The notes below the pieces were generated by a model. The model did no database searches. It was not told the DNA's origin and saw only the letters and a list, made by a program, of their open reading frames with translations. The translations under genes were made by a program, and so were the position numbers. This document shows, in pieces, positions 362 through 30,082 of a DNA stretch of 32,000 nucleotides. Position 1 is the stretch's first letter. The number at the start of each line of letters is the position of its first letter. This stretch comes from an uncultured Chloroflexia bacterium (GTDB lineage: Bacteria > Chloroflexota > Ktedonobacteria > Ktedonobacterales > JADMIN01). The DNA is taken from the NCBI GenBank assembly GCA_963718915.1, contig CAVRAI010000003.1, positions 840,001 to 872,000 on the forward strand. Reading direction: 5' to 3'.

Positions 362-436
362 GCCAGCGTAGCTCAGTGGCAGAGCAGCTGTTTCGTAAAC
401 AGCAGGTCAAGGGTTCAAATCCCTTCGCTGGCTCCA
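362..436 (+). tRNA. tRNA-Thr (anticodon CGU)
   Basis: Hand-folded cloverleaf. Acceptor GCCAGCG/CGCTGGC (362-368/426-432). D arm GCTC-AGTGGCA-GAGC. Anticodon stem GCTGT/ACAGC with loop TTCGTAA (anticodon CGT at 394-396). T arm AAGGG-TTCAAAT-CCCTT. Encoded CCA at 434-436. Confidence 0.92.
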
Positions 437-7019: not shown

Positions 7020-7096
7020 GGCGCATTCGTCTAGTGGCCCAGGACGCCGCCCTCTCAAGGCGGAGATCACGGGTTCGAATCCCGTATGCGCTACCA
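7020..7096 (+). tRNA. tRNA-Glu (anticodon CUC)
   Basis: Acceptor GGCGCAT/ATGCGCT (G1-U72). D arm GTCT-AGTGGCCCA-GGAC. Anticodon stem CCGCC/GGCGG with loop CTCTCAA (CTC at 7054-7056). T arm ACGGG-TTCGAAT-CCCGT. Encoded CCA at 7094-7096. Strong resemblance to bacterial tRNA-Glu. Confidence 0.92.
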
Positions 7097-10371: not shown

Positions 10372-10392
10372 CAGCTCAGCAGCAGCTCAGCA
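10371..10392. repeat. 11-bp x2 tandem repeat at the nurA stop
   Basis: GCAGCTCAGCA GCAGCTCAGCA, starting in the last base of the TAG stop codon. Confidence 0.85.
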
Positions 10393-10412
10393 GAGACGCT
10401 TGAGAACGCCCC

Positions 10413-10451
10413 GATGGAGGACAGTGATGGAGGACAGTGATGGAGGACAGT
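10413..10451. repeat. 13-bp x3 tandem repeat, each unit carrying GGAGGA plus ATG
   Basis: GATGGAGGACAGT x3, followed by a partial fourth unit (ATGGAG). ATGs at 10414, 10427 and 10440 fall in three different frames. Confidence 0.9.
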
Positions 10452-12155: not shown

Positions 12156-12217
12156 CGGTTAGGAGTCGACCGAGCGCTGGCGAGATGACTTGTTTGTGAT
12201 GAGAGGGATGGAGCAGG

Positions 12218-13204: not shown

Positions 13205-13358
13205 TGTATCTGGCATATCTGCCGCAGTAGCGCCATCCGATGCGCCATCAGCAACCTATCCGCCGGATGCTGTCCAGGACATCACAGCGCTTCCAGGCTC
13301 TGATTCTACACGTCCTGCCGCAGACACTGCGGAAGCTGAGGATACCGTACACCGAGCA

Positions 13359-13724
13359 ATGCAGGTGATTCTCGATCGGATCAGGCCGTACTGTACCCCT
13401 GACGCGATGGTACGGCTCTGCCTCACAGGTCCGATTTCTCGCGAGCGCTACCGCGCACTTGATCTGCGCAAAGTTTGGCTTATCGCGCAACATCAGGCGT
13501 TCTCGTTTGAACTCGATGAGTCTGGCCTCTTTCTGGTCGAGCAGGGATCGCAGGAGCAGGTGGTTCGTGGTGAGCGCATCGCGCCGCGTGAGATGCTGGA
13601 GCAGGTCATGGGAGCCTGGATGGATCGTGCCAAGACAACTGCTGAACGCACGCTTTTGGCAAAGACTCGCGAACGAGTTCTCACATTATACGAGCAGTTA
13701 ACGGGGGGGGAAGCGACGCGATGA
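13359..13724 (+). CDS. Mre11 C-terminal (capping/Rad50-binding-like) domain encoded as a separate ORF in another frame
   Basis: VILDRIRPYCTPDAMVRLCLTGPISRERYRALDL... resembles the region that follows the nuclease core in single-chain Mre11/SbcD homologues. This frame is open from 13179. Its stop overlaps the next gene's start (ATGA at 13721-13724). Confidence 0.55.
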   Translation: MQVILDRIRPYCTPDAMVRLCLTGPISRERYRALDLRKVWLIAQHQAFSFELDESGLFLVEQGSQEQVVRGERIAPREMLEQVMGAWMDRAKTTAERTLLAKTRERVLTLYEQLTGGEATR

Positions 13725-16700
13725 TTACGCTCCGACATCTGCATGTGGAGAACTTTAAGGGGCTGGATAGCGTAGACCTCTCCTTCCCTGAACAGGGCAG
13801 CATCCTCATCGAAGGCCATAACGAAGCAGGAAAGTCAACCCTTTTCGAGGCAGTCTATGTCGCACTCTATGGTGAGCCTTTAGTCGGCGAGGACAATCGC
13901 CCACGTCTTGAGGAGGTCATCAAGCATGGTCAGCCGCAGGCGCTGGTCGAATTGACCTTCGCCGTCAGCACCGAGCAACTCACGATACGCCGTGTCTTGA
14001 GACGGGAACAACCTCAACAGGCGCGGCTTACTATCCGCCAACCCAATGGTCATGAGGAGACTGTCAATCGTCCCACCGCCGTCAATCGACGCATCCTGCA
14101 AGAGTTGAACAATTTGGACGGCGATAATCTGCGCAACTCGTGCTTCGTCGAGCAGAAGGAACTGGGACGGCTGGAGGACATGAATCCCAGCAGGCGTGAG
14201 CAGGCAATCCAAAGCCTCCTGGGACTTGAGCGATTGACAAAGCTCTCAGACCAGTTCAAGTTCAAGCGCGAGCAGGAACGCGAGCTAGATCATGCACGGC
14301 GTCTACTCGAACTGGCCTACGCGCAACAGGATGTACGGGTGCTGGTGGTGGAAGAGCAGGCGGCTGCTGAACGTCTCGATGCCACGAGGATTGCCGCGCA
14401 ACTCACAGAATGCGCTGCGCTTGAAGAACAGCAGACGGCTCTCCGGGAGCAGTCGCAGGCAAATGTATTCCGTGAGACCGATCTACGCGGGCGGCTGGAG
14501 TATGCTGGCCGCATACGCGGCCAGGTTTCCAGGTGCAATGTGGTGCAGCAGCAACTGGAAAGAGCGACTGCTCAAAGGGAAACTGTAGAGCGGTTGAAGG
14601 GGAAGCTGGCAGAGATGGATGCCATCGAGCGCCAGGCAATACCCGAAACGAGAACACAACTCGACCGAACCTTGACGGCGCTCAAGTTGGTGGTTGACGC
14701 CGAAGAAAAGCGCATGGCAGTGCATGATGCTACTGGCATTGAGCAAGAAGCGCTACGTGCCGTTGCAGAGCTTGAACGGGCTAAAGAGGTCGTGCGTCAA
14801 CGGGCAGAAACGCTGGATATATCACGTGCGCGAGCGAATCAACACCGCAAGGAAGCAGCTTCGTCGCGCGAACAAAACCAGCGACAACTCGCGATACTGA
14901 GCGCTCGACATAATCAGTTGAGCCATATGCTTGAGTTGGTTATGGCATGGGAGCATAAACGCGACGCATTAGAGGCAGTGCGTCAGCAGATTCGTGATGC
15001 AGAGAAGAATGCGCAAAGGCTCCTGGAGCTTCGCGCTACCCTACTGCAGCGAGAAGAGACAGCCCACCAAGCGGTAGGTAGAGCGGAACAAGCGGAACGT
15101 AAGCGTCAACAGGCGGAGTCGCACCGGCGACAATCAGAGGGATATGAAGCGCTGCACGAGTGGATACGCCTGAAGGAGGTTGAGGCCTCGCTCTCCGGCT
15201 TTGCGCAGGATCGCACCACAATGGAAGCGGAGCGCCAACAGGCCACCGCTGCGTATGCGAGCGCCCAGGCGCGAGCGCGCGGGTTATTGTACCAAACAGC
15301 GGCCACTATGCTGCTGGCAATGATTGCTCTCGTAGCCGGAGCTATTCTATCCCCCTGGCTATTGGTCATTGGAGCTATCCTTGGAGTAGTGGCTATCTTC
15401 CGTGGTGGCGGCTATTGGCGTTCTCGCGTTGCGACGACAGCGGGTAAACAGGCAGTCGAGAGCGTGGCGAACAAGCTTCGCGAGCTCACAATGCGCTATC
15501 AGGCGGCGGTGCATGCTGGGGGTGATCCTGCCCAGCTCGGTCAGCGTGAGCGTGCCCTTACCGCAGCAGGATTCGCAGTCCCCTCGTCGCTTGATGCTGC
15601 GCGTAATCTACTGGCCAGGCTGTCTGCGGAAGGGATCATAGACTATCAGCGTGCAAGGGTGTCAGCAGATGAAGCGGTGACGACACTGGCCCGATTGAAG
15701 GCCGAGGCAGAGCGAGCACAAGGCGATGTCGATCAGACCAGGGTGGCGCTGCACAACCTTGAAGAGCAGGGTGATGCGTCTGTAATGCTGCGTGAACTCC
15801 ACATACGTGAGACCCAGGAGAGCAAAGCAGCCGAAGCTGCTGAGGCAACGGCTCGCGAGGCTACGAAAGGGGAATTGTCATGGCCGACGAATCAAGCTCA
15901 GATCGACATGGCGGCTGCGGCATGTCAGGCGGAGCAACAAACCATTCAGCGCACAATGGCTGATGCGGAAGCCCAGACAAGGCGCATAGAGCATGACGAT
16001 GAAGATGCTATCGCGCAAGCACACCAAGTACTTAGAACCGCTGAGGACGCTGTTGCGGTATTGCAGATGCCTGATCCTCAGGCAATGCTTACGGATGCGC
16101 AGGCAAATCTTGTCCATGCCGAAGAACTCGCGCGCGCAGCTGAAACGCAGTCGCAGTTGGCTGTTCGGGGCATGGGATTATCGCCCGAACGGACGGCAGT
16201 CGAGGCGGCGCGTGGGCGAGTAGAGGAGCGTCTGCGGAACCTGGAAAGCCAACTGACAACCCGGCCAGCGGTTGAAACTGCGTTCACTAACGCACAAACG
16301 ACATATGCAGACATGCTGCAGAAAGCGAGCAATGCGCTCCTGGCAATCGTGGAATCAGCCCGTTCACTTGCAATCGCATCGCTTCAAGGCGTCGCGGCGC
16401 TTGAAGATCAGGCCGCGCGTGAGCGTCCGTTGGCCGCCAGGCTAGACGAGGTGTGTGCTGCCCTCGTATCTGCGCTCACCGAGCTTCATGAGGCAGATGC
16501 ACAGACTGAGCTAGAGCGCCTCCTGCATGAGAAGGGGACACTGAACCAGCGCCTACAGTCTATGGAGAGTCAACTTGCCTCTATTGAGGGGGACATCCAG
16601 AGTATCTTGGCGGCGCGTCACCTCCCTACGCCTACCCAATATACTGCTACGGCATTGGCTGCTGTGTGGCCGTTGATCGGAACAGCCTCGGCTCACGAGC

Positions 16701-17440
16701 TTGATCGTATGCAACTGGAACTTGAGCAAGTTCGCAACCGCCACTTCGCAGCGCGTGATCGGGAGCATCGCCTGACCGAAATACTTGGTGATCCAGGGGT
16801 GGAACTCGAGGTCGAGGCGTGTGGCCATCGCGTCCAAGAACTCGATGAGGAGCGAGCCATCTGCCAGCACGCCATCGGCATAATCCAGGAGACTCGTGAT
16901 CGCATTGCTCGGCAGGTTCTGCCGACCACAGAACGCAATATGGAATTGTTGCTTCGTGAACTTACCATGCACCGCTACTGGAGCGTTCGATTGACACCAC
17001 CTGCCAGCGAAGAGAGGCAGCTCAACCAGCTTGATTACCGCATTCGTGTATGGGATCAGACAGCCCAGCGCTATGTTGCCAAGAATCTCTTCTCTGGAGG
17101 TACACGAGATCAATGTTCCCTGGCATTGCGGCTCGCCTTTGCTCTGGCGACTCTCCCACAGGAGCTAGGCATTGCGCCTGGTTTCATTTTTCTGGATGAG
17201 CCATTGAGCGCCTTCGATGCCCAGCGTGCGCAAGCACTTGTGAATCTGCTCACGACAGGAATCATTGCTCAGCAGTTCGCCCAGGTCGTGGTCATCTCGC
17301 ATCAGCATGCGTTTGATCGCAACGCATTTCAGTATCATATTCGTATGGATAGTGGCCAAGTCGTCGAGAGCGATCTCCCAGTGATGCCCAGCCACTCTTT
17401 GCAACGCACGCCTATGAAAGCCTCTAGTGCGCGTGCGTGA
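13721..17440 (+). CDS. Rad50/SbcC-like SMC-type ATPase with central hydrophobic hairpin
   Basis: Walker A GHNEAGKSTLFEAV. Q-loop FVEQKELG. More than 800 aa of heptad-like E/Q/R/A-rich sequence. Signature FSGGTRDQCSLALRLA. Walker B FIFLDEPLSAFD. H-loop VVISHQH. Hydrophobic block TAATMLLAMIALVAGAILSPWLLVIGAILGVVAIF at residues ~526-560. Confidence 0.9.
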   Translation: MITLRHLHVENFKGLDSVDLSFPEQGSILIEGHNEAGKSTLFEAVYVALYGEPLVGEDNRPRLEEVIKHGQPQALVELTFAVSTEQLTIRRVLRREQPQQARLTIRQPNGHEETVNRPTAVNRRILQELNNLDGDNLRNSCFVEQKELGRLEDMNPSRREQAIQSLLGLERLTKLSDQFKFKREQERELDHARRLLELAYAQQDVRVLVVEEQAAAERLDATRIAAQLTECAALEEQQTALREQSQANVFRETDLRGRLEYAGRIRGQVSRCNVVQQQLERATAQRETVERLKGKLAEMDAIERQAIPETRTQLDRTLTALKLVVDAEEKRMAVHDATGIEQEALRAVAELERAKEVVRQRAETLDISRARANQHRKEAASSREQNQRQLAILSARHNQLSHMLELVMAWEHKRDALEAVRQQIRDAEKNAQRLLELRATLLQREETAHQAVGRAEQAERKRQQAESHRRQSEGYEALHEWIRLKEVEASLSGFAQDRTTMEAERQQATAAYASAQARARGLLYQTAATMLLAMIALVAGAILSPWLLVIGAILGVVAIFRGGGYWRSRVATTAGKQAVESVANKLRELTMRYQAAVHAGGDPAQLGQRERALTAAGFAVPSSLDAARNLLARLSAEGIIDYQRARVSADEAVTTLARLKAEAERAQGDVDQTRVALHNLEEQGDASVMLRELHIRETQESKAAEAAEATAREATKGELSWPTNQAQIDMAAAACQAEQQTIQRTMADAEAQTRRIEHDDEDAIAQAHQVLRTAEDAVAVLQMPDPQAMLTDAQANLVHAEELARAAETQSQLAVRGMGLSPERTAVEAARGRVEERLRNLESQLTTRPAVETAFTNAQTTYADMLQKASNALLAIVESARSLAIASLQGVAALEDQAARERPLAARLDEVCAALVSALTELHEADAQTELERLLHEKGTLNQRLQSMESQLASIEGDIQSILAARHLPTPTQYTATALAAVWPLIGTASAHELDRMQLELEQVRNRHFAARDREHRLTEILGDPGVELEVEACGHRVQELDEERAICQHAIGIIQETRDRIARQVLPTTERNMELLLRELTMHRYWSVRLTPPASEERQLNQLDYRIRVWDQTAQRYVAKNLFSGGTRDQCSLALRLAFALATLPQELGIAPGFIFLDEPLSAFDAQRAQALVNLLTTGIIAQQFAQVVVISHQHAFDRNAFQYHIRMDSGQVVESDLPVMPSHSLQRTPMKASSARA

Positions 17441-19915: not shown

Positions 19916-20039
19916 TACATAATCCACAGTGCAGGGTTGCCCACAATCAGCGGTTTGCCTGGAAGAAAAACAACCCTGGCGGTCAAACCAGCGTAGAGAA
20001 TACCAAACGGCCTTGGATATCAGGGTAAGAGGGTCGCTT

Positions 20040-22616
20040 GTGATTCGAATAGTGAGCAAACAACGATCACGGCTTGGCATGACAGCACGACGGCTTCTTG
20101 CTGTTATGTCACTCGGCATTCTTGTAGTCACTCTATCTCCGCTCGCTTCTCTCTCTGTCCTTGCGCAGCCAGCCAGTTCCATCGCGCCGACAGCGTCCGC
20201 GCCTGCTGGCCATGTCACGATCCTCGTCCTCGATATGTCCGGCTCGATGGGCAGCAACGATCCGAATGGATTGCGCTGCTCGGCGGCTAACGCCTATATC
20301 GATTTGAGCGGGCCGGGCGATTTCGTCGGCGTCGTCGGTCTGGATAACACCGGCCCGACGGGCGGCGCGCATAACTTCCCGCTGGCGCAGGTATGGGCCG
20401 AGCCGAGTGAAATGGCGACGGTTGCCGCGCGCGCGCAACTGCATAACACCATCGCTACGAAGTCCCATAACTGCAAGCCCGACTCCGCGACCCCCACCTA
20501 CGACGCCTTGCAACGAGCGCTGACGATGCTCACGGCATCCACCGCGCAGACGCATCTGCCCGGCTCCGTCATCCTGCTGACCGATGGCGTGCCCGCGCCA
20601 CAACAGAACGAGCAGATCAGCGCGATCCAGACCGACCTCGTGCCGCAGTTCAAGCAGCGCGACTTTCCGGTTGATACGGTGGCCCTTGGCGCGGACGGCA
20701 CGCTGCGGTCGTTCCTGAGCGACCTCGCCAACGCGACGGGCGGCGCGTACTATGACGATGGACACGGCGTGGTCAGTGGCGTCTCGCCCTTGAACATCGC
20801 GCCCTTCTTTGTCAGCATCTTCGCCCAGCGCAATGGCCGCACGGTGACGCATGACATCCCGCCGACAGCGCTTTCCGGCGGCACGGTCTCGCGGAACTTC
20901 TCTATCGGCGCCTTTGTCTCGCATCTCGATGTCGTCGCCGTCAAAGACTCACCTGCTACGCGCGTGACGCTGACCGCGCCCAACGGCCAAGTCTTGCCGC
21001 CAGCGGTCGCCGGAACATTTATCTCCAGCGACCCTCATTACGTCATCTTCAGTGTGGATCATCCGCAGAGTGGGGCATGGCAACTGAATGTGACTGGCTC
21101 CGGGCGCTTCCTGATGGATAGCCTCAAGCTCTCGACCCTCGGCCTGAGCATCCTCGCGCCCGCCTCGGACACGCCAGAGCCGCTGGGCCAGCCGCTGACG
21201 GTGAGCGCGACGCTCAACGACAATGGCACGCCGATCACTGGCAGCCGCTATAGCATGAACGGAACGATTGCCTACAGCGGCGGCACGGGTAGCTATACGC
21301 AGGAGTTCGTGCTGGACGACCACGCCAGCCCGGGTACCTATGCCGCGCAGATTACGATTCCGCCCAGCGCGCCCGCTGGAACCTATAACGTCACGATCAA
21401 CGCGCGCGAGGTGAGCGATACCATCGCCAGCGCCAATCGTCTGGTCCGCATCGAACTCTTCCCATCGCCGCTGCTCGTCGCTCCCTCCACCGGCAAGCTC
21501 ACCACCGATACCGTCGCCACGAGCGAGACCCTGTGGGATCCCGCACTGCGCGCGATCTATAGCGTGCCGTTTGGGGTGCTGACCTGGCTCAGTGGCTGGC
21601 CGTTGCAGGGGCATCCGGTGGTGGACGGCGCGCGGCTCGACGGCGCGGTTCAGCTCGACGGCAAACCGTATGCTAACGCCAGCGTCAGCGGCTTGGCCAC
21701 ACGCGATGGCTCGAAGACGGCGATCCCGCTGCATATCGCGCCTGGCGAGAACGGGCGCTTCACGGCGGCCTTTACGCCCAGCGGTGACGGCCAGTACGCG
21801 CTGACGTTCAGGACGCTGGGCAGTTTCAAGGATTCGCATGGCGACCTCGGCACGACCACCCGCACGGTGGCGCTCAAGACGCAGCCCGCCTCGCTCGCGC
21901 AGGAGGCCATCGCCTGGGCCATTACGTTGCTATATCTCGCCATCCTCGTGCTGATTGTGCTGCTGATCCGCTATGCCATCTCGCAGAAGCCGTTCGGACG
22001 ATTGGTCTCCAACGACGGCGGAGGCGGCGAGGAGTTCTCCCGCGCACGTCGCGGGCTATTTGGGCTGCTGCATCCGGGCACGGTGCTCTCGCAGCAGATG
22101 GGGCTTGACCCCGGCCTGATCTTCAGCTTCCGGCGCGGCAACCGCATCACCGTCGAGGGCAACGGCGGCGGTCGGCGGGCCTACCGGCTTGGCGGCGAGC
22201 CGCTCCCCACCAGCCCCGTCCCTGCCGCGGAGTCGCTGCTGACGACCAACGAGGGGATGTCCTATACGGTGAGCGCGTCGAGTAGCGATGAGTTCCTGGA
22301 CGAAGAAGAGGGCACGCGGCGCGGCGGACTGCTGCGCCGCAAATCGGCCAGCGACGACTACTTTGACGATGACGACGCTCGTGGGCGGCGCGGTCTGTTC
22401 GGGCGGCGGTCGCGTGGCGACGACTACGATGACGAGGGGAATCGCGGCAGCCGACGTAAATCGCGGCGCGCGCGGGACGACTACGACGATATGGACGACG
22501 ACGGCCCCTCGCGCTCGCGCGGTGGTTCGCGTGGCCGTTCGCATGGCGATGATTTTGACGACTATTCTTCAGGCGGGCGATCCAGGAAATCGCGGCGGCG
22601 CGATGATGACTATTGA
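20040..22616 (+). CDS. exported von Willebrand factor A (vWA) domain protein with a single C-terminal TM helix and a charged disordered cytoplasmic tail
   Basis: GTG 20040 is preceded by AAGAGGG; ATG 20079 is an alternative start. Signal-peptide-like MTARRLLAVMSLGILVVTLSPLASLSVLAQP. MIDAS motif VLDMSGSMGS, TPTYDAL, ILLTDG. Long beta-rich ectodomain. TM helix AIAWAITLLYLAILVLIVLLIRYAI. R/D-rich tail. Confidence 0.85.
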   Translation: MIRIVSKQRSRLGMTARRLLAVMSLGILVVTLSPLASLSVLAQPASSIAPTASAPAGHVTILVLDMSGSMGSNDPNGLRCSAANAYIDLSGPGDFVGVVGLDNTGPTGGAHNFPLAQVWAEPSEMATVAARAQLHNTIATKSHNCKPDSATPTYDALQRALTMLTASTAQTHLPGSVILLTDGVPAPQQNEQISAIQTDLVPQFKQRDFPVDTVALGADGTLRSFLSDLANATGGAYYDDGHGVVSGVSPLNIAPFFVSIFAQRNGRTVTHDIPPTALSGGTVSRNFSIGAFVSHLDVVAVKDSPATRVTLTAPNGQVLPPAVAGTFISSDPHYVIFSVDHPQSGAWQLNVTGSGRFLMDSLKLSTLGLSILAPASDTPEPLGQPLTVSATLNDNGTPITGSRYSMNGTIAYSGGTGSYTQEFVLDDHASPGTYAAQITIPPSAPAGTYNVTINAREVSDTIASANRLVRIELFPSPLLVAPSTGKLTTDTVATSETLWDPALRAIYSVPFGVLTWLSGWPLQGHPVVDGARLDGAVQLDGKPYANASVSGLATRDGSKTAIPLHIAPGENGRFTAAFTPSGDGQYALTFRTLGSFKDSHGDLGTTTRTVALKTQPASLAQEAIAWAITLLYLAILVLIVLLIRYAISQKPFGRLVSNDGGGGEEFSRARRGLFGLLHPGTVLSQQMGLDPGLIFSFRRGNRITVEGNGGGRRAYRLGGEPLPTSPVPAAESLLTTNEGMSYTVSASSSDEFLDEEEGTRRGGLLRRKSASDDYFDDDDARGRRGLFGRRSRGDDYDDEGNRGSRRKSRRARDDYDDMDDDGPSRSRGGSRGRSHGDDFDDYSSGGRSRKSRRRDDDY

Positions 22617-22688
22617 CTGCCAGTTTGCGCGATAATCGCCTCGCTGGCAAACGGCCAGGCGAGGAGCAGCTTATAGATATGTAGACAA

Positions 22689-25442
22689 ATGACGATGAAC
22701 AGAGGTGATGGCATGGGCGACACTGATATGACACTTAACGCGGCCAATGGAGCGGAAGACAGACCACGATCAGCGGCAGAGTCGCAGATAGAAGTGCCGT
22801 CGCTCAACATTTTTCTTGGCAGTACTCCAGCGTACTCGGCCCTGGAGATGATGCGCCAGCTTGTCCATCTCTCGCCTTCTGACCATCGGCGCGTCGCGCT
22901 GGTCTTCCTCGATATCGACTCGCCCCCGGCGGAGGTTCAGCAGTTCCGCCAGGAGCATCTGGGCGTGCTGCGCGAGTTTGATCTGCGCATCTCGGTGGCG
23001 CACGGCGTTGTCTACGCGGACCAGTTGCCGCAGCCCATCGCGACCCATACCTACATCCCTACCAAAATCCCTGAGTCGTTCGATAACGGCGCGGGTGGCA
23101 TCCGCAACAACGGACACGTCGCCGCCGCAACCGACCGCGCCAAAATCGATCAGCTGCTCGAAGAGGCGCTCTCCGCGATTGGGGCGCTGCCTCCGGAGCG
23201 TGGGGCGCGCCCGGTGAGCGAGGTGCAGGTGAATATCGTCGCCTTCCTGGGCGGCGGCACCGGCAGCGGCATCCTGGGCGATGTCGCCGTAATGGCCCGA
23301 CATCGCATCTTGCAACGGAATCTCAAACACCGCCTGAATATCTTCTGCCTGCTGCCAGAGCACGTCCGCGAGGCGACCACCAATGACGTGAGCTGGCGCA
23401 AGAGTAACGCCACCGCGACCCTGATGGAGCTGATCGCGCTCAGCCTGGTGCGCGAGAATCGAGGTGGCGCGCGCTACACCAAATATATGGCGGAGACGCC
23501 CTATGAGGTGCGTGGCGAGACCATCGCCAACGAGGTCTATCTCTTCGGCAAAACTTCGATGGTCTCAGCGGAAGACGCGGCGCGCATTATCGGCCTTGAT
23601 CTCTATATGCGGGTGACCAACGCATCGGGTGTCGGCTTCCTCGAACGCTCTAAAGCCGTTGACCGCCGCACGCTCGGCAACTTCGACCGCACCGGCCTGC
23701 CGACGATGTTCGGCACCACCTGCCCGCTGGAGGTCGCCTTTCCCGCCATCGAGACAGCAACCGCCTTTGCCCGGCTGACCGCCTCGAAGGTGCTGCCGCT
23801 GCTGGCGCGCGACATGAGCGAGGCGCGCGGCCAACTGAACGCGAGCGATTTGGACGAAGTGAAAGAGTGGGACAGAGCGTTACAGCCAGAGGATCCGCCA
23901 CCCTTCAGCGATAAGAGCTTCCAGACGGCGGGGCGCGACCGGCTCGATATGTTGGAGGCGCGGCTGAGCAAGCAGGTGCAGGAGGCAACCGACGAGATTG
24001 CCGAACTGGCGGAGCAGAAGGAAGAGGAAGAGAAGAAGCGTATCTATAGCGCCGCGCTGGAGCCGCTCGGCGTGCAGATCGCCCGACTGGAGACGCGCAA
24101 GCGTATCTATAGCGCCGCGCTGGCTCGCGTGCAGGATCAGAATGTGCCCAGCAAGGGACGCCCCGACCGCCAGCTCCAGCGCAAACTGCTCCGGCCGCTG
24201 CCACTGCCCGGCGCAAAAGACCGCAACGTCGCCGCCGTCACCGACGACTTCAACCGCGTTCAGCGGCGGAATGTGCGCAACGAGTATCTGACGCGCAAGA
24301 AGCGCCTGCTGACCAAACTGCTCGAATATGTCAACGCCGAGTTGCAGCACGTCAAGCGCTTCCAGGGGGATGTCGAGGTCGATCAGTCGGCGCGCGACCT
24401 GGAGAAGCTAGCCACCTCGTCGTCGGCCTGGCGCGGCGAGTTGGACAATACCCACATTCACCGGCGCCACGTCTTCGATCTACCCGGCATGCCCGGCATG
24501 AATACGGGCGGGCTATCGTCGCCGCCGGTCGAGCGCCTGTACGAGCACATGACCTCGCGCGACCTGCCCTCCTATGCGCAGCGCTTTACTGAGTGGATAC
24601 AGACGCGCCACGGGGCCGATGCGGCGCTGGCGGCGGGCACGGGCAACGAGCTACGCGACCGGCTGGTGCAATATCTACGTGACGAGGTCTATCTCAAGCG
24701 GCTGCTGGAGATGAATCTCTTCGATTTGCTGGAGGTCTGCTGCGTCGAGTCGGGTGAGCGCGCCGATCACAAGATCGAGAATATCTTGCTGGCGCATCTG
24801 CAACACATCAGCGGCCTGGCCCGCGAGCTGGTGGCCTTCGAGGCGCAACTCTGGCACGAGGGCAGCGGTATGCTCAGCACCAGCCTCTACATGGGGATGA
24901 GTTGGAAGAGCGGCTTTCAGCGGCGGATTCTGGATCGCGCGCGCGGTCGGCTCGGCGCCATCGCCAAAGAAGGCGCAAGCCCAATGCTCGCCAGCGCGAT
25001 TGACCCGCACCGGCTGCAACTGGCCTATGGGCAGCACGCCATCAGCCTGGGCACCATTCCCGATTTCTATCAGGAAGCCAACAGCAGCATGGGCGAGTTC
25101 CTGCGCCACCAGTCATACTGGTTTGTCGATGGCAGTAAGCAATCGTATGGTCGGAGCCGAGCGCCCGTCTTCAGTTCCGGCGAGATGGAAAAGCTGGTGA
25201 TGGATCCTAATGCGCTTCTCGATGGTAAAAGCACGCTGCCAGCGCGTATCATCCGACAGGTACAGCGTGGCGCGGGCGATGCGCCCACGTGGGCGACGAG
25301 CCAGCCGGGCAGCGCTTACGCCCCGACGGCGCCCACCGCGGCATCCAACGGGCAGTATCCGCCACAGCAGCCAACGTATCCGCGTGGCGGCGCTAGCGGT
25401 ACGAGCGGATATGGGAGCGGCGGTGGCGGGTCGAGCTTCTAG
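22689..25442 (+). CDS. large tubulin/FtsZ-superfamily-like GTPase domain protein with coiled-coil region and Gly/Ser/Tyr-rich tail
   Basis: T4 signature GGGTGSG (23250-23270) matches the PROSITE tubulin pattern. T3-like FDNGAGGIRNNGH (about 23079-23120). E/K/R-rich helical middle. C-terminal tail QYPPQQPTYPRGGASGTSGYGSGGGGSSF. Alternative start ATG 22713, preceded by GAGGTGA. Confidence 0.8.
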   Translation: MTMNRGDGMGDTDMTLNAANGAEDRPRSAAESQIEVPSLNIFLGSTPAYSALEMMRQLVHLSPSDHRRVALVFLDIDSPPAEVQQFRQEHLGVLREFDLRISVAHGVVYADQLPQPIATHTYIPTKIPESFDNGAGGIRNNGHVAAATDRAKIDQLLEEALSAIGALPPERGARPVSEVQVNIVAFLGGGTGSGILGDVAVMARHRILQRNLKHRLNIFCLLPEHVREATTNDVSWRKSNATATLMELIALSLVRENRGGARYTKYMAETPYEVRGETIANEVYLFGKTSMVSAEDAARIIGLDLYMRVTNASGVGFLERSKAVDRRTLGNFDRTGLPTMFGTTCPLEVAFPAIETATAFARLTASKVLPLLARDMSEARGQLNASDLDEVKEWDRALQPEDPPPFSDKSFQTAGRDRLDMLEARLSKQVQEATDEIAELAEQKEEEEKKRIYSAALEPLGVQIARLETRKRIYSAALARVQDQNVPSKGRPDRQLQRKLLRPLPLPGAKDRNVAAVTDDFNRVQRRNVRNEYLTRKKRLLTKLLEYVNAELQHVKRFQGDVEVDQSARDLEKLATSSSAWRGELDNTHIHRRHVFDLPGMPGMNTGGLSSPPVERLYEHMTSRDLPSYAQRFTEWIQTRHGADAALAAGTGNELRDRLVQYLRDEVYLKRLLEMNLFDLLEVCCVESGERADHKIENILLAHLQHISGLARELVAFEAQLWHEGSGMLSTSLYMGMSWKSGFQRRILDRARGRLGAIAKEGASPMLASAIDPHRLQLAYGQHAISLGTIPDFYQEANSSMGEFLRHQSYWFVDGSKQSYGRSRAPVFSSGEMEKLVMDPNALLDGKSTLPARIIRQVQRGAGDAPTWATSQPGSAYAPTAPTAASNGQYPPQQPTYPRGGASGTSGYGSGGGGSSF
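24036..24123. repeat. in-frame 63-bp-period internal duplication in the tubulin-like gene
   Basis: The 25-mer AAGCGTATCTATAGCGCCGCGCTGG occurs at 24036-24060 and 24099-24123. It encodes KRIYSAAL twice. Confidence 0.9.
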
Positions 25443-26096
25443 CGCGGGCGTGATGTAGTTTCACGTATTACACAGAACAGCGCGCATCGTGGCGGGCGCG
25501 GCAGGCCGTAGCATAAATGCTACGGCGAATGGGCAGAGCGGCGCGTGGGGGCCGGGAAATTCGCCGGGGCCTTTGGGCTTCCGGCTTGCTCGCCTAGCAC
25601 GCGGTCTAGCACGCGGTTCGGAGTTAATTCGTACAGTTCATCATGCGCCAGGGCCGCCAGCCAATCCCGCCATTGGCGCCGAAACCGAAAATACCCATAG
25701 TACGTACATACGAGGGGCGTGATTCCGTCTCCCTCATGGAACGAAGTATTTTAGTAGATGTAGTAGGCGGCGTTTTTACTCTGTAACAGGGGCAAGGTTC
25801 GTGGTTGGGCGGGTTCGCGGCATGAATGCCGCGGCTAATCCCGTTCGATGAGCATTCCGCTACGTGGCAAGAGGGTGAATTGCCGCAGGATTAGCTGTAG
25901 TCTTCAGGCTACGGCGCGGTACGAGCAGACGAACGCTGCGATTCATCCCAGGGGTCATACCGGATCGCGGTCTGGAGAGCCTGCGCAGGCAGGCTTTGCG
26001 GCGTAGCCCTTAGGCGCGGCTTTAGCCGCCAGCCGCCCTACGGCGGGGATTCATACCGAATAGCAGGCAAAGACAGGCATAGGCAAGGAGCAGAGC
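25443..26096. other. 654-bp non-coding spacer rich in short perfect hairpins, palindromes and a 12-bp x2 tandem repeat
   Basis: GCCGTAGCA-TAAA-TGCTACGGC (25505-25526). CTAGCACGCGGT x2 (25594-25617). CGCGGCAT/ATGCCGCG (25816-25833). GCTAATCC...GGATTAGC pairing across about 45 nt. GCCTGCGCAGGC palindrome. GCGGC-TTTA-GCCGC. No convincing ORF. Confidence 0.6.
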
Positions 26097-26378
26097 GTGG
26101 CAACCTCGACGCCGATTCGCTTCCGACCAACGATCGTCCTCTGTGTGGGCGACCGTGGCCGCGAGGTGGGCGCGCAACTCTCCATGCTCTTGCCAGGGCT
26201 GGATGGCGCGCGTCAGGCGGGTATCGCGCTGCTCACGGTCGATGACGACGCGACGATGACGGCGCGTTGCTCGGCGCCTGGTACGATCCGGGCCTCAGCG
26301 CCGTCGCCAGCCTACCCGGCCCCCTACCCGACGATACGCCCATCAGCATTGATCGCCGCCCGTTACCAACCCTCGTGA
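26097..26378 (+). CDS. probable true 5' end of the downstream tubulin-like paralogue, in a different frame (only the first ~55 codons look genuine)
   Basis: GTG 26097 has AAGGAG 6 nt upstream. PTIVLCVGDRGREVGAQLSMLL...AGIALLTVDDD aligns with LNIFLGSTPAYSALEMMRQLVHL...RVALVFLDIDS of the upstream paralogue. Confidence 0.4.
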   Translation: MATSTPIRFRPTIVLCVGDRGREVGAQLSMLLPGLDGARQAGIALLTVDDDATMTARCSAPGTIRASAPSPAYPAPYPTIRPSALIAARYQPS

Positions 26379-28762
26379 CGGAAGGACTGCGCGGCCAGCA
26401 CTACGAGCACTACGTGCGCTCGACGCCAGAAACACAGGTGCGCCGTGGCGTGCTGGACGACGCCGTGGTGGGACACATCCGCGACAATGGCTATAGCGTG
26501 CCGCGAGCGATGGCGGTTGTCTGGATCGCCGCCGCCGCCGATTCGCCGCTGCTGCTCGATGTCGCGCGGGATGTGCGTACCTCCATGCGCAGCGAGAGCG
26601 TCGAGTCGTGGGTATTGCTGGCGCTGACCAATACCTACCCACACGATCCCGCCGAGCATCTGGCGCAGGAAGAGCGCGTCGCCGATCAGCCGTGGCGCGA
26701 GCTACTGCTGGGAGATGAGAAGCCTGCCCAACCAAGTCACCAGCCCGGCCAGTTCAGCCCTTCCAAAGAGCCGCCGCTGGCAACCTACTCCTATATCTTC
26801 GAGACGCACGACGAGAAGGGCCATTTCTGGGAAGGCCCGGATGAGGTCGCCTATGGCGCGGCGGAGGCGATTTTCGTGCTGACCGCCACTGGTATCACCA
26901 CCACGCGCGAGTACGAGGAGACCCTGCGGCGGGCTACACCCAACATGGTGCGCCAGCCGTTCGAGCGGATGAGCAGCGTGGGCACAAGCCGCCTGACCTT
27001 CCCGCGCGCGCAGGCTGAGCTGTACTGCGCCAGCCGCCTCGGCGCGACCATCCTCGACGAATGGGCGCCGGAAAAAGCCGCCGACCTCTCCGACCAGGAC
27101 CAGCGCCGCGAGGCCGCCGAGGCCCGGCGCTACCTGAACGGCATCAACGGCGAGATGCGCGATAGCGACACTGTGGTGGCAGCGCTCCGCCACAATGAGG
27201 GACGCCGTTCGCGCCGCCACTCGCGCGAGCACCAGCTGCCGCCGGATGACGCCGCCAAAACATTGGTCTACCGCCACTTCAGCCCGGCGGTGGTGCGCCG
27301 CTATATCACCGCCCGCACCGACGAGCCGACCGCGCTCGAAAACCAGCTTCCGCGCGCCGAGGAGGGCTTCGCCGCCTGGCAGGAGGTCGTCAAGCCAGCG
27401 TGGGAACGTTACGGCCACGAGACCGAGCGCGCGCTCTCGACCAGAACCAACGAGCAGGTGCTGGAGGGCGCCATCGGCGTCGAACGCGCCTATGCCTACA
27501 TGGATGGTCTGAATAAGGCGCTGCTGGCCGAACAGGAGAATCAGACGCTCGGACGCGGCGCACGCAACGCGCGCTATCTGCGCTTTCTGGAGACGCTGGA
27601 AGATGAGAGCAAAGGCCCATGGGAGGCCGATATCATCCGCCAGCCCGACGAGCCGGAGCTGACCCGTGAGGCGGCGCTGATCGAGCGACTGGCGGCGCGC
27701 TATCGCTGGCTGAAGCGCCACCGGCCCGCCGTCGCAACCTTCGTCGGCGCGGGACTGCTGATCGTCCCGATGCTGACCTTGCTGCTAGATGCGATTCTGG
27801 CCGCTCCAACTCGCGGCGGTCTGTTCTCGCTGCCGTTGCTCGCCGTCTACTCGGTTGCGCTGGTGGCGCTGGCCTCATGGGGCTATGCCGCCTGGCGGCG
27901 ACGGCAACGCGAGGATGCTCTTGCCGATCTGCGCAAGGTCTATCGCACGATGTATCGTTACCGCTGCGACGAATACGAGGATGAGTTACGGGCGGAGGCG
28001 CTCCAGGGTCTGCGCCAGCGGGCGGAGCGCATTCTGGATCGGCTGGCGAACTGGGAGCGCTTCATCGGCGAGGTTGCGCGCACCCTGCGCGACGAGGCCG
28101 ATAGCATCGAGCTGCGCCTTTTCAACGGCGCGGTCGGGCGGCGCGATATTCTGGTGGCGAACCGTCGTCGGCTGCGGCTGGACGGCTATTCGCTACGACG
28201 CTTCGAGGAAGACGTGAGCAAGCTGCGCCAGATTCGGCCCATCGAGGGTTCGCCGTGGCACAGCAACCAGCATGAACTACTGCTTCAGCTACGCGCCCGT
28301 CTGCATATGACCGCCAGCCTGGTAGATTCGCCGGTGCTGGCGCTGCTCCCGCCGATTCGCGAGTATTGCCACGAGATTGTGCGCCCGTATCTCACGGGCG
28401 ATCTGGTCTACCTGAGCGGTGCGCTTGATGCGCTGCCCGCCGATTCGTCGAACAGCCTCTTCGATACACTGGTGGACCGCTCGGTGATCCTCTATCAGCC
28501 GGAGGATCAGCCACGCGCGGCCACGGTCTTCATGGCGGCGCGTGAGGAGGATAGGCTCGCTATTCTGCGCACGAGCAAACAGCGCGGGCTGGTGACGCTT
28601 GGCCTGGAGGATCGCGAATGGCTGGCGACGCTGCGGCTGCTCCCCGGTGGCACGACGCCGACATTCTGGCGCCATCGCACCGTTCACACCCATCCCTCGC
28701 TGCCAACGCCCGACTGGGCTTCCGACTCCATCACGATGCAGCGTGGAAGAACACAAGGATAG
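26267..28762 (+). CDS. tubulin-like paralogue with a degenerate nucleotide-binding motif and a central two-helix TM hairpin
   Basis: Collinear similarity to 22689-25442: VVWIAAAADSPLLLDVARDV vs VNIVAFLGGGTGSGILGDVAVM; SSVGTSRLTFPRAQAELYCASRLGATILDEW vs MFGTTCPLEVAFPAIETATAFARLTASKVLPLL. TM helices VATFVGAGLLIVPMLTLLLDAIL and LFSLPLLAVYSVALVALASWGYAAW. TTG 26267 has no SD, so the true start is probably 26097 via a frame change. Confidence 0.75.
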   Translation: MLGAWYDPGLSAVASLPGPLPDDTPISIDRRPLPTLVTEGLRGQHYEHYVRSTPETQVRRGVLDDAVVGHIRDNGYSVPRAMAVVWIAAAADSPLLLDVARDVRTSMRSESVESWVLLALTNTYPHDPAEHLAQEERVADQPWRELLLGDEKPAQPSHQPGQFSPSKEPPLATYSYIFETHDEKGHFWEGPDEVAYGAAEAIFVLTATGITTTREYEETLRRATPNMVRQPFERMSSVGTSRLTFPRAQAELYCASRLGATILDEWAPEKAADLSDQDQRREAAEARRYLNGINGEMRDSDTVVAALRHNEGRRSRRHSREHQLPPDDAAKTLVYRHFSPAVVRRYITARTDEPTALENQLPRAEEGFAAWQEVVKPAWERYGHETERALSTRTNEQVLEGAIGVERAYAYMDGLNKALLAEQENQTLGRGARNARYLRFLETLEDESKGPWEADIIRQPDEPELTREAALIERLAARYRWLKRHRPAVATFVGAGLLIVPMLTLLLDAILAAPTRGGLFSLPLLAVYSVALVALASWGYAAWRRRQREDALADLRKVYRTMYRYRCDEYEDELRAEALQGLRQRAERILDRLANWERFIGEVARTLRDEADSIELRLFNGAVGRRDILVANRRRLRLDGYSLRRFEEDVSKLRQIRPIEGSPWHSNQHELLLQLRARLHMTASLVDSPVLALLPPIREYCHEIVRPYLTGDLVYLSGALDALPADSSNSLFDTLVDRSVILYQPEDQPRAATVFMAAREEDRLAILRTSKQRGLVTLGLEDREWLATLRLLPGGTTPTFWRHRTVHTHPSLPTPDWASDSITMQRGRTQG

Positions 28763-28773
28763 GTGGCGCGCCG

Positions 28774-29370
28774 ATGATGACGGACCCCTACGGCCAGACG
28801 AATCCGAGACCGGCAAATGGCGCCATGACGCCCGCGCAGATTCCGCCGGTGGGCCACATCTCGCCACGGATGCTGCTGGCAGTGGCCGCGATCTACAATC
28901 CGGCGATTCTCATCGGCTACTTCCTCTATATCTACGGGCCAAGCAATAGCTGCGTGCTGGGCGGTCTCTGCGGTTTCGGCGATTTTCCCGGCATCATCCA
29001 GCTTTTCCTGCTGATCGTCGGCGCTGGCATCTTCACAGCAGTCGTTTTCGTGCCGCTCTGGTGGCTGCTGGATGAGGCGCGTCCGGCCCGCGACATCGTC
29101 TCCCGCACCGCCCGCGATATGATGCGCTTCGTCACGATTCGCCCGCTGATGGTCGGCTACGGTGTTATTCTGGCGCTGCTGCTCATCATTGGCCTGCTCG
29201 TGCACCGCGTCCCGCCGTCACTCTTCCTGCTTGGCCTCTCGTCGACGATCATCTGCTTCTGGTGCGCCGCCAGCCCGGAGTTCACTCCCCCGCCACCTGC
29301 CTCACCGCCACAGCAGCGTCCTCGTCCCGCCAGCAGTGTCCTCCCGCGCGATCCACCGCCGCCGCTATAG
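28774..29370 (+). CDS. four-TM membrane protein with Pro-rich C-terminal tail
   Basis: ATG 28774 lies 12 nt after the upstream stop (28760-28762). Four hydrophobic helices. Tail PPPPASPPQQRPRPASSVLPRDPPPPL. The upstream part of the 250-aa ORF overlaps the previous gene. Confidence 0.7.
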   Translation: MMTDPYGQTNPRPANGAMTPAQIPPVGHISPRMLLAVAAIYNPAILIGYFLYIYGPSNSCVLGGLCGFGDFPGIIQLFLLIVGAGIFTAVVFVPLWWLLDEARPARDIVSRTARDMMRFVTIRPLMVGYGVILALLLIIGLLVHRVPPSLFLLGLSSTIICFWCAASPEFTPPPPASPPQQRPRPASSVLPRDPPPPL

Positions 29371-29557: not shown

Positions 29558-29848
29558 CTACCAGTCGTTGCGACGACCGTATCCCCCACCGGAGCGCTCG
29601 GGGCGCGGCTGCGCCTCGTTCACACGAATGCTCCTGTTGTCGAGCGTCGTCCCATTGAGGGACGCGATCGCGTTGCGTGCGGCGGTATCGTCAGACATCT
29701 GAACAAAGCCGAAGCCCTTGCTGCGACCAGTATCACGGTCAATCACGACCGAAGCCTCGACGACCTCACCATACGCGCTAAAAATCTGAACCAGCTGCTC
29801 GTTGTCAGCTGAATAGGGCAGGTTGCCCACGTAAATCCGGGTGGCCAT
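29558..29848 (-). CDS. RRM-type RNA-binding protein (glycine/arginine tail)
   Basis: RNP-2 IYVGNLPY and RNP-1 KGFGFVQM. ATG at 29848 is preceded by GAAGGAGGGAG. Confidence 0.9.
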   Translation of the reverse strand: MATRIYVGNLPYSADNEQLVQIFSAYGEVVEASVVIDRDTGRSKGFGFVQMSDDTAARNAIASLNGTTLDNRSIRVNEAQPRPERSGGGYGRRNDW

Positions 29849-30082
29849 GTGGCTCCCTCCTTCAAGCAGAATCATGCCGACGCACTGATGGCGTCAGCGT
29901 CCAATACTCCGTGACAAGTCAATCTGTACAGCACTCGCAGACTCATGGAGATTCTTGCTGAGGAGAGAAACTCGATCAGGCAGAGGTTACCAAGAAGAGT
30001 TACATCGTGCATTCGCGATCAACTACGAAGGTAGTATAACACATCTGGCGGATCATTGCCGACGTTCATGTTGCGCGAGTAT

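What the first reader, a model, noticed from the sequence alone, without database searches (positions are those of the whole stretch)
26267..28762. Second tubulin-like paralogue has lost the GTP-binding signature and gained a TM hairpin
**Seen in sequence.** Collinear similarity to the upstream gene:

| Downstream paralogue | Upstream gene |
|---|---|
| MAVVWIAAAADSPLLLDVARDV | VNIVAFLGGGTGSGILGDVAVM |
| YSYIFETHDEKGHFWEGPDEVAYGAAEAIFVL | EVYLFGKTSMVSAEDAARIIGLDLYMRV |
| SSVGTSRLTFPRAQAELYCASRLGATILDEW | MFGTTCPLEVAFPAIETATAFARLTASKVLPLL |

- GGGTGSG is replaced by AAAADSP.
- If the 26097 ORF is its true N-terminus, it keeps a more glycine-rich T1-like loop (CVGDRGREVG) than the active paralogue (LGSTPAYS).
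- Two TM helices (about 27730-27895) interrupt the helical region.

**Inference.** This would be an active/inactive heterodimer arrangement, conceptually like alpha/beta-tubulin or enzyme/pseudoenzyme pairs. The inactive member would anchor the assembly to the membrane.
Basis: partly seen in the sequence, partly recalled or inferred. Interest (0 to 1): 0.65.

Follow-up and report, generated by a model that had tools for sequence, protein, structure and literature searches.

The report
Membrane-anchored dead copy of bacterial tubulin-like protein
Next to a tubulin-like GTPase gene (FtsZl1 family) in a soil Chloroflexota (Ktedonobacterales) genome lies a very diverged sister gene. It keeps the same overall build but has lost the GTP-binding loop and carries a two-helix membrane anchor, so it probably ties the active protein to the membrane. 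That role is untested.

Summary
The real gene is 26097-28762 (about 888 aa). In this assembly a 1-nt deletion near 26248 splits it, and five close relatives lack that deletion.

- **No pairwise similarity.** BLASTP against the upstream FtsZl1/Tubulin_2 gene (22689-25442) finds nothing (E=0.78).
- **Profile evidence supports distant paralogy.** A broad family profile aligns to the FtsZl1 N-domain at P=5e-5 to 9e-5, and 0 of 120 column shuffles reach that score. A second, collinear hit falls after the TM hairpin. One family member (P0291) passes Pfam's Tubulin_2 cut-off on its own.
- **Structure evidence agrees, weakly.** The AF2 models have collinear secondary structure. Foldseek's top hits for the downstream model are mostly tubulins and CetZ, at E 0.01-0.1.
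- **The degenerate loop is conserved.** 0 of 59 orthologues and 0 of 141 more distant relatives have GGGTG at the T4 position. The upstream family has the GGGTG core in 57 of 57 (full GGGTGSG in at least 54).
- **The TM hairpin is conserved.** All 59 orthologues have it, with an N-in/C-in topology.
- **The gene is under purifying selection.** dN/dS is about 0.09.
- **The gene order is conserved.** The cassette vWA, FtsZl1, this gene, small membrane protein recurs in all six related contigs examined, and every named member is Chloroflexota.

The idea that it pairs with the active protein and anchors it to the membrane is plausible but untested, and the alpha/beta-tubulin analogy is loose. I rate it a new variant of a known system (Makarova & Koonin 2010).

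The parts
20079..22616 (+). vWA-domain membrane protein, first gene of the cassette. Its ORF opens at 19929; the likely start is the Met at 20079, ahead of a signal-like hydrophobic segment. It has a MIDAS-type DxSxS motif (DMSGS, 20232-20246), one TM helix (21909-21968), and a charged low-complexity cytoplasmic tail.
   Evidence: Pfam VWA_2 E=2.8e-6. Hydrophobic segments. Motif positions. A vWA or large Ig-like gene sits at this position in L001-L004, L026 and L027.
22689..25442 (+). FtsZl1 (Pfam Tubulin_2) protein of 917 aa, the nucleotide-binding paralogue. It has no TM segment.
   Evidence: Pfam Tubulin_2 E=8.8e-20. AF2 pLDDT 83.4. Foldseek pdb gives 268 hits at E<=1e-3, the top 50 all tubulin, CetZ or FtsZ. 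No hydrophobic segment reaches the TM threshold.
23250..23270 (+). T4 signature GGGTGSG of the FtsZl1 protein.
   Evidence: The GGGTG core is present in 57 of 57 family members; the last two positions are S in 55 and G in 56. Coordinates.
26097..26248 (+). 5' part (frame 0) of the downstream gene. It encodes the S1 strand and the T1-like loop CVGDRGREVG (26142-26171).
   Evidence: Orthologue N-termini are continuous with it. DNA alignments support the join.
26247..26249 (+). Site of a 1-nt deletion (frameshift) relative to five close relatives. It is either an assembly error or a very recent mutation.
   Evidence: dN/dS of the corrected gene is 0.08-0.10, with no other lesion.
26249..28762 (+). 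Remainder (frame 2) of the downstream gene. It encodes the rest of the tubulin-like N-domain, a helical stalk with a TM hairpin, and a C-terminal alpha/beta domain.
   Evidence: AF2 model of the 92%-identical P0001: pLDDT 83.0, pTM 0.74.
26528..26548 (+). Degenerate T4 loop AAAADSP, at the position of GGGTGSG.
   Evidence: hhalign register. Conserved in all 59 orthologues. The wider family keeps one Gly (73%) at the first position.
26786..27019 (+). Block shared with the C-terminal half of the Tubulin_2 model: YSYIFE (strand S6), TATGITTT (T7-like loop by position, inferred) and RLTFPRAQAE.
   Evidence: Weak Pfam Tubulin_2 hits in 6 of 10 members tested, always to profile positions 249-356. 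P0291 scores 31.1 bits, above the cut-off of 27. Column conservation; coordinates.
27731..27892 (+). TM helical hairpin: TM1 27731-27799, a short outside loop, TM2 27818-27892. TM2 runs on into a roughly 70-residue stalk helix.
   Evidence: Hydropathy in all 59 members. Positive-inside counts are 4.2 / 0.8 / 3.1 K+R before, between and after the helices. AF2 helices 548-570 and 580-653 of P0001.
28774..29370 (+). Small protein (about 198 aa) with several hydrophobic, TM-like segments; fourth gene of the cassette.
   Evidence: A gene of 173-264 aa follows at this position in six loci, with weak sequence conservation. Hydropathy.

Best explanation
**What it is.** The gene 26097-28762 encodes an integral-membrane protein of about 888 aa that is an ancient, highly diverged paralogue of the FtsZl1 (Tubulin_2) protein encoded just upstream.

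**Shared build (shown).** Both proteins have a tubulin/FtsZ-like N-terminal domain of about 345 aa, a long helical stalk, and a small C-terminal alpha/beta domain.

**Differences (shown).**
- The phosphate-binding T4 loop GGGTGSG is replaced by a conserved Ala-rich turn, AAAADSP.
- Two TM helices sit at the tip of the stalk, where FtsZl1 has a basic loop.
- Both large domains lie on the cytoplasmic side.

**Inferred mechanism.** The protein no longer binds or hydrolyses GTP. It acts as the membrane-embedded partner of the soluble, GTP-binding FtsZl1. It would pair with FtsZl1 through the tubulin-like domains and/or the stalks. That would tether, nucleate or cap FtsZl1 assemblies at the cytoplasmic membrane.

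**Wider context.** The pair would work with the vWA protein, whose vWA domain is extracellular, and with the small membrane protein of the same four-gene cassette. This fits the membrane-remodelling role proposed for FtsZl1 operons by Makarova & Koonin (2010).

**This window's copy.** In this assembly the gene is broken by a 1-nt deletion, most likely an assembly error or a very recent mutation.
For: **Homology to FtsZl1**
- Broad-profile hhalign gives P=9.3e-5 (N-domain) and P=4.8e-5 (full length). A second, collinear hit has P=0.0035.
- 0 of 120 column shuffles reach the real score.
- Weak Pfam hits go only to Tubulin_2, and always in the same register.
- The linking sequence P0291 belongs to this family (E about 1e-19) and also passes Tubulin_2's gathering cut-off (31.1 bits, E=1.9e-7).
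- The order of secondary-structure elements is collinear in the two AF2 models.
- Foldseek hits for the downstream model are dominated by tubulins and CetZ, with probability up to 0.99.

**Loss of the GTP signature**
- 0 of 59 orthologues and 0 of 141 distant relatives have GGGTG at the T4 position. The upstream family has the GGGTG core in 57 of 57.

**Still functional**
- dN/dS is 0.08-0.10, including the N-domain.

**Membrane anchor**
- The TM hairpin is present in 59 of 59 orthologues and in most of the full-length distant relatives, and charges follow the positive-inside rule.
- FtsZl1 has no TM segment.

**Partnership**
- The order vWA, Tubulin_2, this family, small membrane protein is kept in all six contexts examined. 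That includes very distant members, and the gaps between the two genes can be as small as -4 to 58 nt.
- The homologue lists of the two genes match in longest-contig length for at least 14 pairs, which suggests shared contigs.
Against: - No direct evidence shows that the two proteins interact.
- The window protein alone shows no significant similarity to its neighbour (BLASTP E=0.78) and fails Pfam's cut-off (11.6 bits against 27).
- The narrow-profile hhalign is only marginal (P=0.018, probability 2.6%).
- Foldseek finds no hit at E<=1e-3 for the downstream model, with TM-scores of 0.27-0.37.
- Loss of nucleotide binding is inferred from the motif, not shown.
- In this window and its closest relatives a 655-nt gap separates the two genes, so co-transcription here is not assured. 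No promoter-like or terminator-like site was found in the gap.
- The frameshift means this particular copy may not be expressed in full length.
Confidence: 0.6

Rival explanations
1. The similarity is not homology. On this view the downstream gene encodes an unrelated membrane protein with a generic alpha/beta N-domain and coiled coils, and it merely sits next to FtsZl1.
For: - BLASTP E=0.78.
- Full-length narrow-profile hhalign has probability 1.8%.
- No PDB sequence hit.
- All Foldseek E-values are above 0.01.
Against: - Broad-profile hhalign reaches P about 5e-5 with 0 of 120 shuffles matching it.
- There are two collinear profile hits.
- Pfam weak hits go only to Tubulin_2, in one register.
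- P0291 passes the Tubulin_2 cut-off.
- Foldseek's list is mostly tubulin and CetZ.
- The bona fide FtsZl1 profile also fails to hit the PDB by sequence, so sequence silence is expected for this family.
Confidence: 0.07
2. The protein is not just an anchor. It would be a mechanochemical membrane remodeller in its own right, built like mitofusin or the bacterial dynamin-like protein BDLP: a globular head, a helical stalk and a membrane-inserted hairpin at the tip. It might still bind nucleotide through non-canonical residues, for example the conserved G-x-x-G-R T1-like loop.
For: - AF2 shows a head, a stalk of several long helices and a TM hairpin at the stalk tip.
- Weak Foldseek hits to BDLP 2j68 (E=0.028), to ClyA-type pore-forming toxins, and to a viral dynamin-like protein.
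- The T1-like Gly and Arg residues are conserved in the close subfamily.
Against: - Those hits have probability 0.15-0.66 and TM-scores of 0.28 or less.
- No P-loop or dynamin motifs were found.
- The T1-like glycines are not conserved in the wider family, apart from one.
- The T4 loop is absent throughout the family.
Confidence: 0.15
3. In this genome the gene is a dead pseudogene, because the frameshift is real. On this view it has no function here.
For: A 1-nt deletion at about 26248 is absent from five relatives. It would separate the first 50 codons, which include strand S1 and the T1-like loop, from the rest of the gene.
Against: - It is the only lesion in about 2.66 kb.
- dN/dS is 0.08-0.10 against three relatives.
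- Indel errors occur in such assemblies: tblastn splits the FtsZl1 gene of relative L010 into two abutting pieces.
- An N-terminally truncated product from the TTG at 26267 cannot be excluded.
Confidence: 0.15

Closest known systems
FtsZl1 family (Pfam Tubulin_2, PF13809) and its vWA-containing operons (Makarova & Koonin 2010, PMC2875224)
   Same: - Same operon type: a vWA gene followed by FtsZl1 and then membrane proteins.
- Same three-part build: a tubulin/FtsZ-like N-domain, a long coiled-coil stalk and a C-terminal globular domain.
- Shared motifs in the second half of the Tubulin_2 model.
   Different: - No GGGTG(S/T)G loop.
- A TM hairpin sits in the stalk.
- The 2010 paper lists the accessory proteins only as uncharacterised membrane-associated families B1-B9, not as FtsZl1 paralogues.
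Alpha/beta-tubulin and bacterial BtubA/BtubB heterodimers
   Same: Two paralogues of the tubulin superfamily are involved, and in BtubA/B they are encoded side by side (from established knowledge of that system). Functional asymmetry between the two subunits is proposed here as well.
   Different: Both tubulin subunits bind GTP. Here one partner lacks the phosphate-binding loop altogether and is an integral membrane protein. Heterodimer formation was not tested.
FtsZ membrane tethers (FtsA, ZipA, SepF)
   Same: The proposed role is the same: attaching a soluble tubulin-superfamily polymer to the cytoplasmic membrane.
   Different: Those tethers are unrelated in fold to FtsZ. Here the proposed tether would be a degenerate copy of the polymer subunit itself.
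Mitofusin / BDLP dynamin-like proteins
   Same: The overall architecture matches: a globular head, a helical stalk and a membrane-inserted hairpin at the stalk tip, with both ends cytoplasmic (weak Foldseek hit 2j68).
   Different: The head is tubulin-like, not a P-loop dynamin GTPase, and it has no recognisable nucleotide site. This is an analogy, not homology.

Membership tests
FtsZl1 / Pfam Tubulin_2 (PF13809) | The protein scores above Pfam's gathering cut-off (27 bits) for Tubulin_2. | tested here: not met
   The window ORF scores 11.6 bits (E=0.16). P0001 scores 11.7 bits. Other close members score 16-22 bits. Only the distant member P0291 passes, at 31.1 bits.
FtsZl1 / Pfam Tubulin_2 (PF13809) | Family-level homology to FtsZl1, by profile-profile comparison and linking sequences. 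| tested here: met
   hhalign P=9.3e-5 and P=4.8e-5, with 0 of 120 shuffles reaching the real score. P0291 links both families.
FtsZl1 / Pfam Tubulin_2 (PF13809) | The GTP-binding T4 signature GGGTG(S/T)G. | tested here: not met
   The loop reads AAAADSP. 0 of 59 orthologues and 0 of 141 distant relatives have the signature at this position. The neighbouring family has the GGGTG core in 57 of 57.
FtsZl1 / Pfam Tubulin_2 (PF13809) | [quoted passage not shown] | tested here: met
   The AF2 secondary-structure maps of both proteins are collinear. The description of the family architecture is from PMC2875224.
FtsZl1 / Pfam Tubulin_2 (PF13809) | Operon association with a vWA-domain protein. | tested here: met
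   A vWA gene lies at 19929-22616. The gene order is conserved in six loci.
Tubulin/FtsZ superfamily (fold level) | The N-domain adopts the tubulin/FtsZ fold. | tested here: inconclusive
   About 40 of Foldseek's top 50 hits are tubulins or CetZ, with probability 0.75-0.99 over about 330 columns. However, E-values are 0.02-0.1 and TM-scores 0.27-0.37. The FtsZl1 control gives E=1e-5 and TM-scores of 0.38-0.51. A domain-only search was not possible.
Alpha/beta-tubulin-type heterodimer | Both subunits bind GTP (N-site and E-site). | tested here: not met
   The downstream protein lacks the T4 loop.
Alpha/beta-tubulin-type heterodimer | A stable physical heterodimer forms between the two paralogues. 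| not testable with these tools
   No multimer prediction was available. The only evidence is a conserved adjacent gene pair.
Dynamin-like / mitofusin (BDLP) | A P-loop dynamin-type GTPase domain. | tested here: not met
   No dynamin or P-loop families were found in Pfam or NCBIfam. The BDLP Foldseek hit has probability 0.33 and TM-score 0.11-0.14.
Known anti-phage defence systems (PADLOC) | A match to any PADLOC model. | tested here: not met
   None of the four cassette proteins hits any model at E<=0.01.

The most novel reading that the evidence does not exclude
FtsZl1 systems may in general be two-subunit machines. A soluble GTP-binding FtsZl1 would pair with a cryptic, nucleotide-free FtsZl1 paralogue embedded in the membrane by a stalk-tip hairpin. 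Together they would form a tubulin-based analogue of mitofusin or BDLP, coupled to an extracellular vWA protein. On this reading, the 'large membrane-associated' genes that follow FtsZl1 in other phyla would be the same kind of hidden paralogue. Examples are B1 (SGR_3832), B3 (cgR_2625), Cagg_1315 and Ava_4731.
Probability: 0.2. Interest if true: 0.75.

Novelty: new variant of a known kind. Interest (0 to 1): 0.5.

Why it matters
FtsZl1 is among the most diverged branches of the tubulin/FtsZ superfamily. It is found in many bacterial groups and some archaea, and its function is unknown (PMC2875224, PMC3160578). This finding shows that its constant neighbour in the Chloroflexota contexts examined is a membrane-embedded, nucleotide-site-dead copy of itself. 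That gives a concrete, testable model for how the system reaches the membrane: a pseudo-GTPase partner acting as an anchor, nucleator or cap. It also adds a bacterial example of an enzyme/pseudoenzyme pair within the tubulin superfamily. Finally, it suggests re-examining the uncharacterised large membrane proteins that follow FtsZl1 in other phyla.

Tried and rejected
- **Pairwise BLASTP** of the two window proteins found nothing significant.
- **Narrow full-length hhalign** (A1 against A2) gave only a weak helical match, E=0.027.
- **PDB sequence searches** with both family profiles returned only coiled-coil noise. The bona fide FtsZl1 profile failed too, so the test is uninformative.
- **NCBIfam and PADLOC** had no models for these proteins.
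- **BFVD (viral) fold search** was uninformative; its top hit was a dynamin-like protein with probability 0.28.
- **Third homologue search with A5** returned only proteins already in hand.
- **tblastn of the FtsZl1 N-domain against plasmids**, meant to reach actinobacterial operons, found no match. The idea that the B1 and B3 families are also pseudo-FtsZl1 therefore stayed untested.
- **The 655-nt gap between the two genes** has no Rfam hit and no promoter-like or terminator-like site.
- **The top Foldseek hit 8au6** (Cg1604, E=0.012) was not pursued. It is a short, weak match of unclear meaning.
- **A programmed frameshift** was considered and rejected, because all five relatives are in frame at that site.
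Full report
**1. What is at the coordinates**

The + strand of 19929-29370 carries four consecutive genes:
- A vWA-domain protein at 19929-22616. Pfam VWA_2 gives E=2.8e-6. It has an intact DxSxS motif, a signal-like N-terminus, one TM helix and a highly charged low-complexity tail.
- A 917-aa Tubulin_2 (PF13809) protein at 22689-25442. Pfam gives E=8.8e-20, and its T4 loop GGGTGSG lies at 23250-23270.
- The finding's ORF at 26267-28762 (831 aa).
- A small protein with several TM-like segments at 28774-29370.

All homologues that carry a source name come from Ktedonobacterales, Chloroflexia or Chloroflexota MAGs, apart from one record (P0007) labelled 'Nitrososphaerota archaeon'.

**2. The true gene and the frameshift**

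Orthologues of the 831-aa ORF are 880-906 aa long. Their N-termini match the separate 93-aa ORF at 26097, which is in another frame.

DNA alignment with five relatives shows that the window lacks one base near 26248, in GATGACG-ACG. The gene is therefore 26097-28762, about 888 aa, broken here by a 1-nt deletion.

After correction, dN/dS against three relatives is 0.08-0.10. This holds for the N-domain as well, and there is no other lesion. The deletion is therefore either an assembly error or very recent. tblastn splits the FtsZl1 gene of relative L010 into two abutting pieces in the same way, so indel errors in this kind of assembly are plausible.

**3. Is it a paralogue of the upstream gene?**

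*Weak or negative tests*
- Pairwise BLASTP finds nothing (E=0.78).
- The window ORF has only a weak Tubulin_2 hit (E=0.16).

*Positive tests*
- A HMMER search of 1.84 billion representative proteins with the family profile found 162 relatives.
- Adding 53 of them made a profile with Neff 6.3. That profile aligns to the FtsZl1 N-domain, from strand S1 and the T1 loop through S4/T4 to S5, with P=9.3e-5.
- None of 120 column-shuffled controls came close. The real score is 40.1; the shuffles give mean 15.2, sd 2.6 and max 26.4. A reversed template scored 14.8.
- Full-length profiles give P=4.8e-5 for the N-domain. They also give a second, collinear hit after the TM hairpin: residues 636-767 against 546-690, P=0.0035.
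- Six of ten family members tested have weak Pfam hits to Tubulin_2, always to profile positions 249-356.
- P0291, a distant member, sits directly after a Tubulin_2 gene in a Chloroflexia MAG. It passes Pfam's gathering cut-off by itself (31.1 bits, E=1.9e-7).

*Structure*
- AF2 models of P0001 (92% identical to the window protein; pLDDT 83.0) and of the window FtsZl1 (pLDDT 83.4) show the same order of elements: S1-H1-S2...S4-[T4]-H4-S5-H5...S6, then long stalk helices, then a C-terminal beta-alpha-beta-beta unit.
- Foldseek against the PDB gives 268 hits at E<=1e-3 for FtsZl1; the 50 listed are all tubulin, CetZ or FtsZ.
- For the downstream model Foldseek finds the same targets, but weakly: E 0.02-0.1, probability up to 0.99, TM-score 0.27-0.37.

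Taken together, I accept distant paralogy. No single test on the window protein alone would establish it.

**4. The degenerate nucleotide site**

At the T4 position the 59 orthologues read W-I-[AV]-A-A-[AV]-[DE..]-S-P, and none has GGGTG. The upstream family has the GGGTG core in 57 of 57, with S and G at the last two positions in 55 and 56 of 57.

None of the 141 more distant relatives has the signature at that position either. The wider family often keeps a single Gly at the first position (73%).

The loss is old and is itself conserved. The glycine-rich T1-like loop is conserved only in the close subfamily.

A further shared motif, TATGITTT against NASGVGFLE, lies where a T7-like loop would be. 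That structural assignment is inferred from position only.

**5. The TM hairpin**

Two hydrophobic helices (27731-27799 and 27818-27892) are present in all 59 orthologues and in most of the full-length distant relatives. FtsZl1 has none.

Flanking charges follow the positive-inside rule. Mean K+R counts are 4.2 before TM1, 0.8 in the loop (median length 10 residues) and 3.1 after TM2, so both large domains are cytoplasmic.

In the AF2 model TM2 continues into a stalk helix of about 70 residues. By the collinear second hhalign hit, the hairpin occupies the place of a basic tip loop in FtsZl1. This last point is an inference.

**6. Genomic context**

The order vWA (or a large Ig-like protein), Tubulin_2, this family, small membrane protein is kept in L001, L002, L003, L004, L026 and L027. 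That includes members that match the family profile only at E=1e-7 to 1e-15. The gaps between the two tubulin-like genes there range from -4 to 145 nt.

In this window and its closest relatives the gap is about 655 nt and poorly conserved. It has no Rfam hit and no promoter-like or terminator-like site.

**7. Mechanism**

*Shown:* a diverged FtsZl1 paralogue with no T4 loop, a conserved N-in/C-in TM hairpin, strong purifying selection, and obligate adjacency to a GTP-motif-bearing FtsZl1.

*Inferred:* it does not bind GTP, and it works as the membrane-embedded partner of FtsZl1, as a tether, nucleator or cap. It would link cytoplasmic FtsZl1 assemblies to the membrane and, through the cassette, to the extracellular vWA protein.

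A nucleotide-free tubulin-fold subunit could offer one polymer face but could not accept a further subunit on a nucleotide-bearing face. This makes an end-cap or nucleator role attractive, but that step is speculation.

The head, stalk and tip-hairpin layout resembles mitofusin or BDLP by analogy only.

**8. Comparison with what is known**

The upstream gene belongs to the FtsZl1 family, and the cassette matches the vWA/FtsZl1 operons of Makarova & Koonin 2010. That paper lists the accessory genes as uncharacterised membrane-associated families B1-B9.

In the searchable literature I found no functional study of FtsZl1 and no description of a degenerate FtsZl1 paralogue.

Their neighbourhood table shows a large membrane or coiled-coil protein directly after FtsZl1 in Streptomyces, Corynebacterium, Chloroflexus, Anabaena and Xylanimonas. 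Whether those proteins are the same kind of hidden paralogue could not be tested here.

**9. Verdict**

- Supported: paralogy, signature loss and the TM hairpin.
- Untested: the heterodimer and anchor role.
- Imprecise: the alpha/beta-tubulin analogy.

This is a new variant within a known system and of moderate interest.

Noticed in passing
window 26247-26249: A single-base deletion splits the downstream gene into two frames. Five close relatives are intact at this site. tblastn splits the FtsZl1 gene of relative L010 into two abutting pieces in the same way, which suggests indel errors in these assemblies.
   Followed up: yes
window 9121-17440 (+): An archaeal-type double-strand-break repair cluster: NurA (9121-10371), HerA (10437-12155), an Mre11-like phosphoesterase (12218-13204) and a Rad50/SbcC-like ATPase (13721-17440).
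   Followed up: partly
window 22000-22616 (C-terminal tail of the vWA protein): The predicted cytoplasmic tail after the TM helix is low-complexity and highly charged. It has repeated RRGLFG and DDY(D/F)DD motifs and ends in ...RRRDDDY. It could be a docking tail for the tubulin-like proteins; this was not tested.
   Followed up: no
window 25443-26096: The gap between FtsZl1 and its paralogue is unusually long, at 655 nt. More distant relatives have gaps of -4 to 145 nt. A short island near 25690-25790 is conserved with L002. There is no Rfam family and no promoter-like or terminator-like match, and only two weak inverted repeats.
   Followed up: partly
window 594-2213 (-): A Ser/Thr protein kinase (Pkinase E=5.8e-37). 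Kinases often accompany FtsZl1 operons according to Makarova & Koonin, but this one lies about 18 kb away on the other strand.
   Followed up: no
L004 12243-19411 and L026 11886-19096: In two more distant lineages the four-gene cassette is followed by a conserved block. The block holds two AAA ATPases and several unannotated genes, and CHAT-protease or radical-SAM genes lie nearby. This block is absent from the window.
   Followed up: no
window 362-433 and 7020-7093 (+); 29558-29875 (-): Two tRNA genes (Rfam). There is also a small ORF that looks like an RRM/RNP-1 RNA-binding protein from its sequence (...KGFGFVQM...); it was not checked against Pfam.
   Followed up: no
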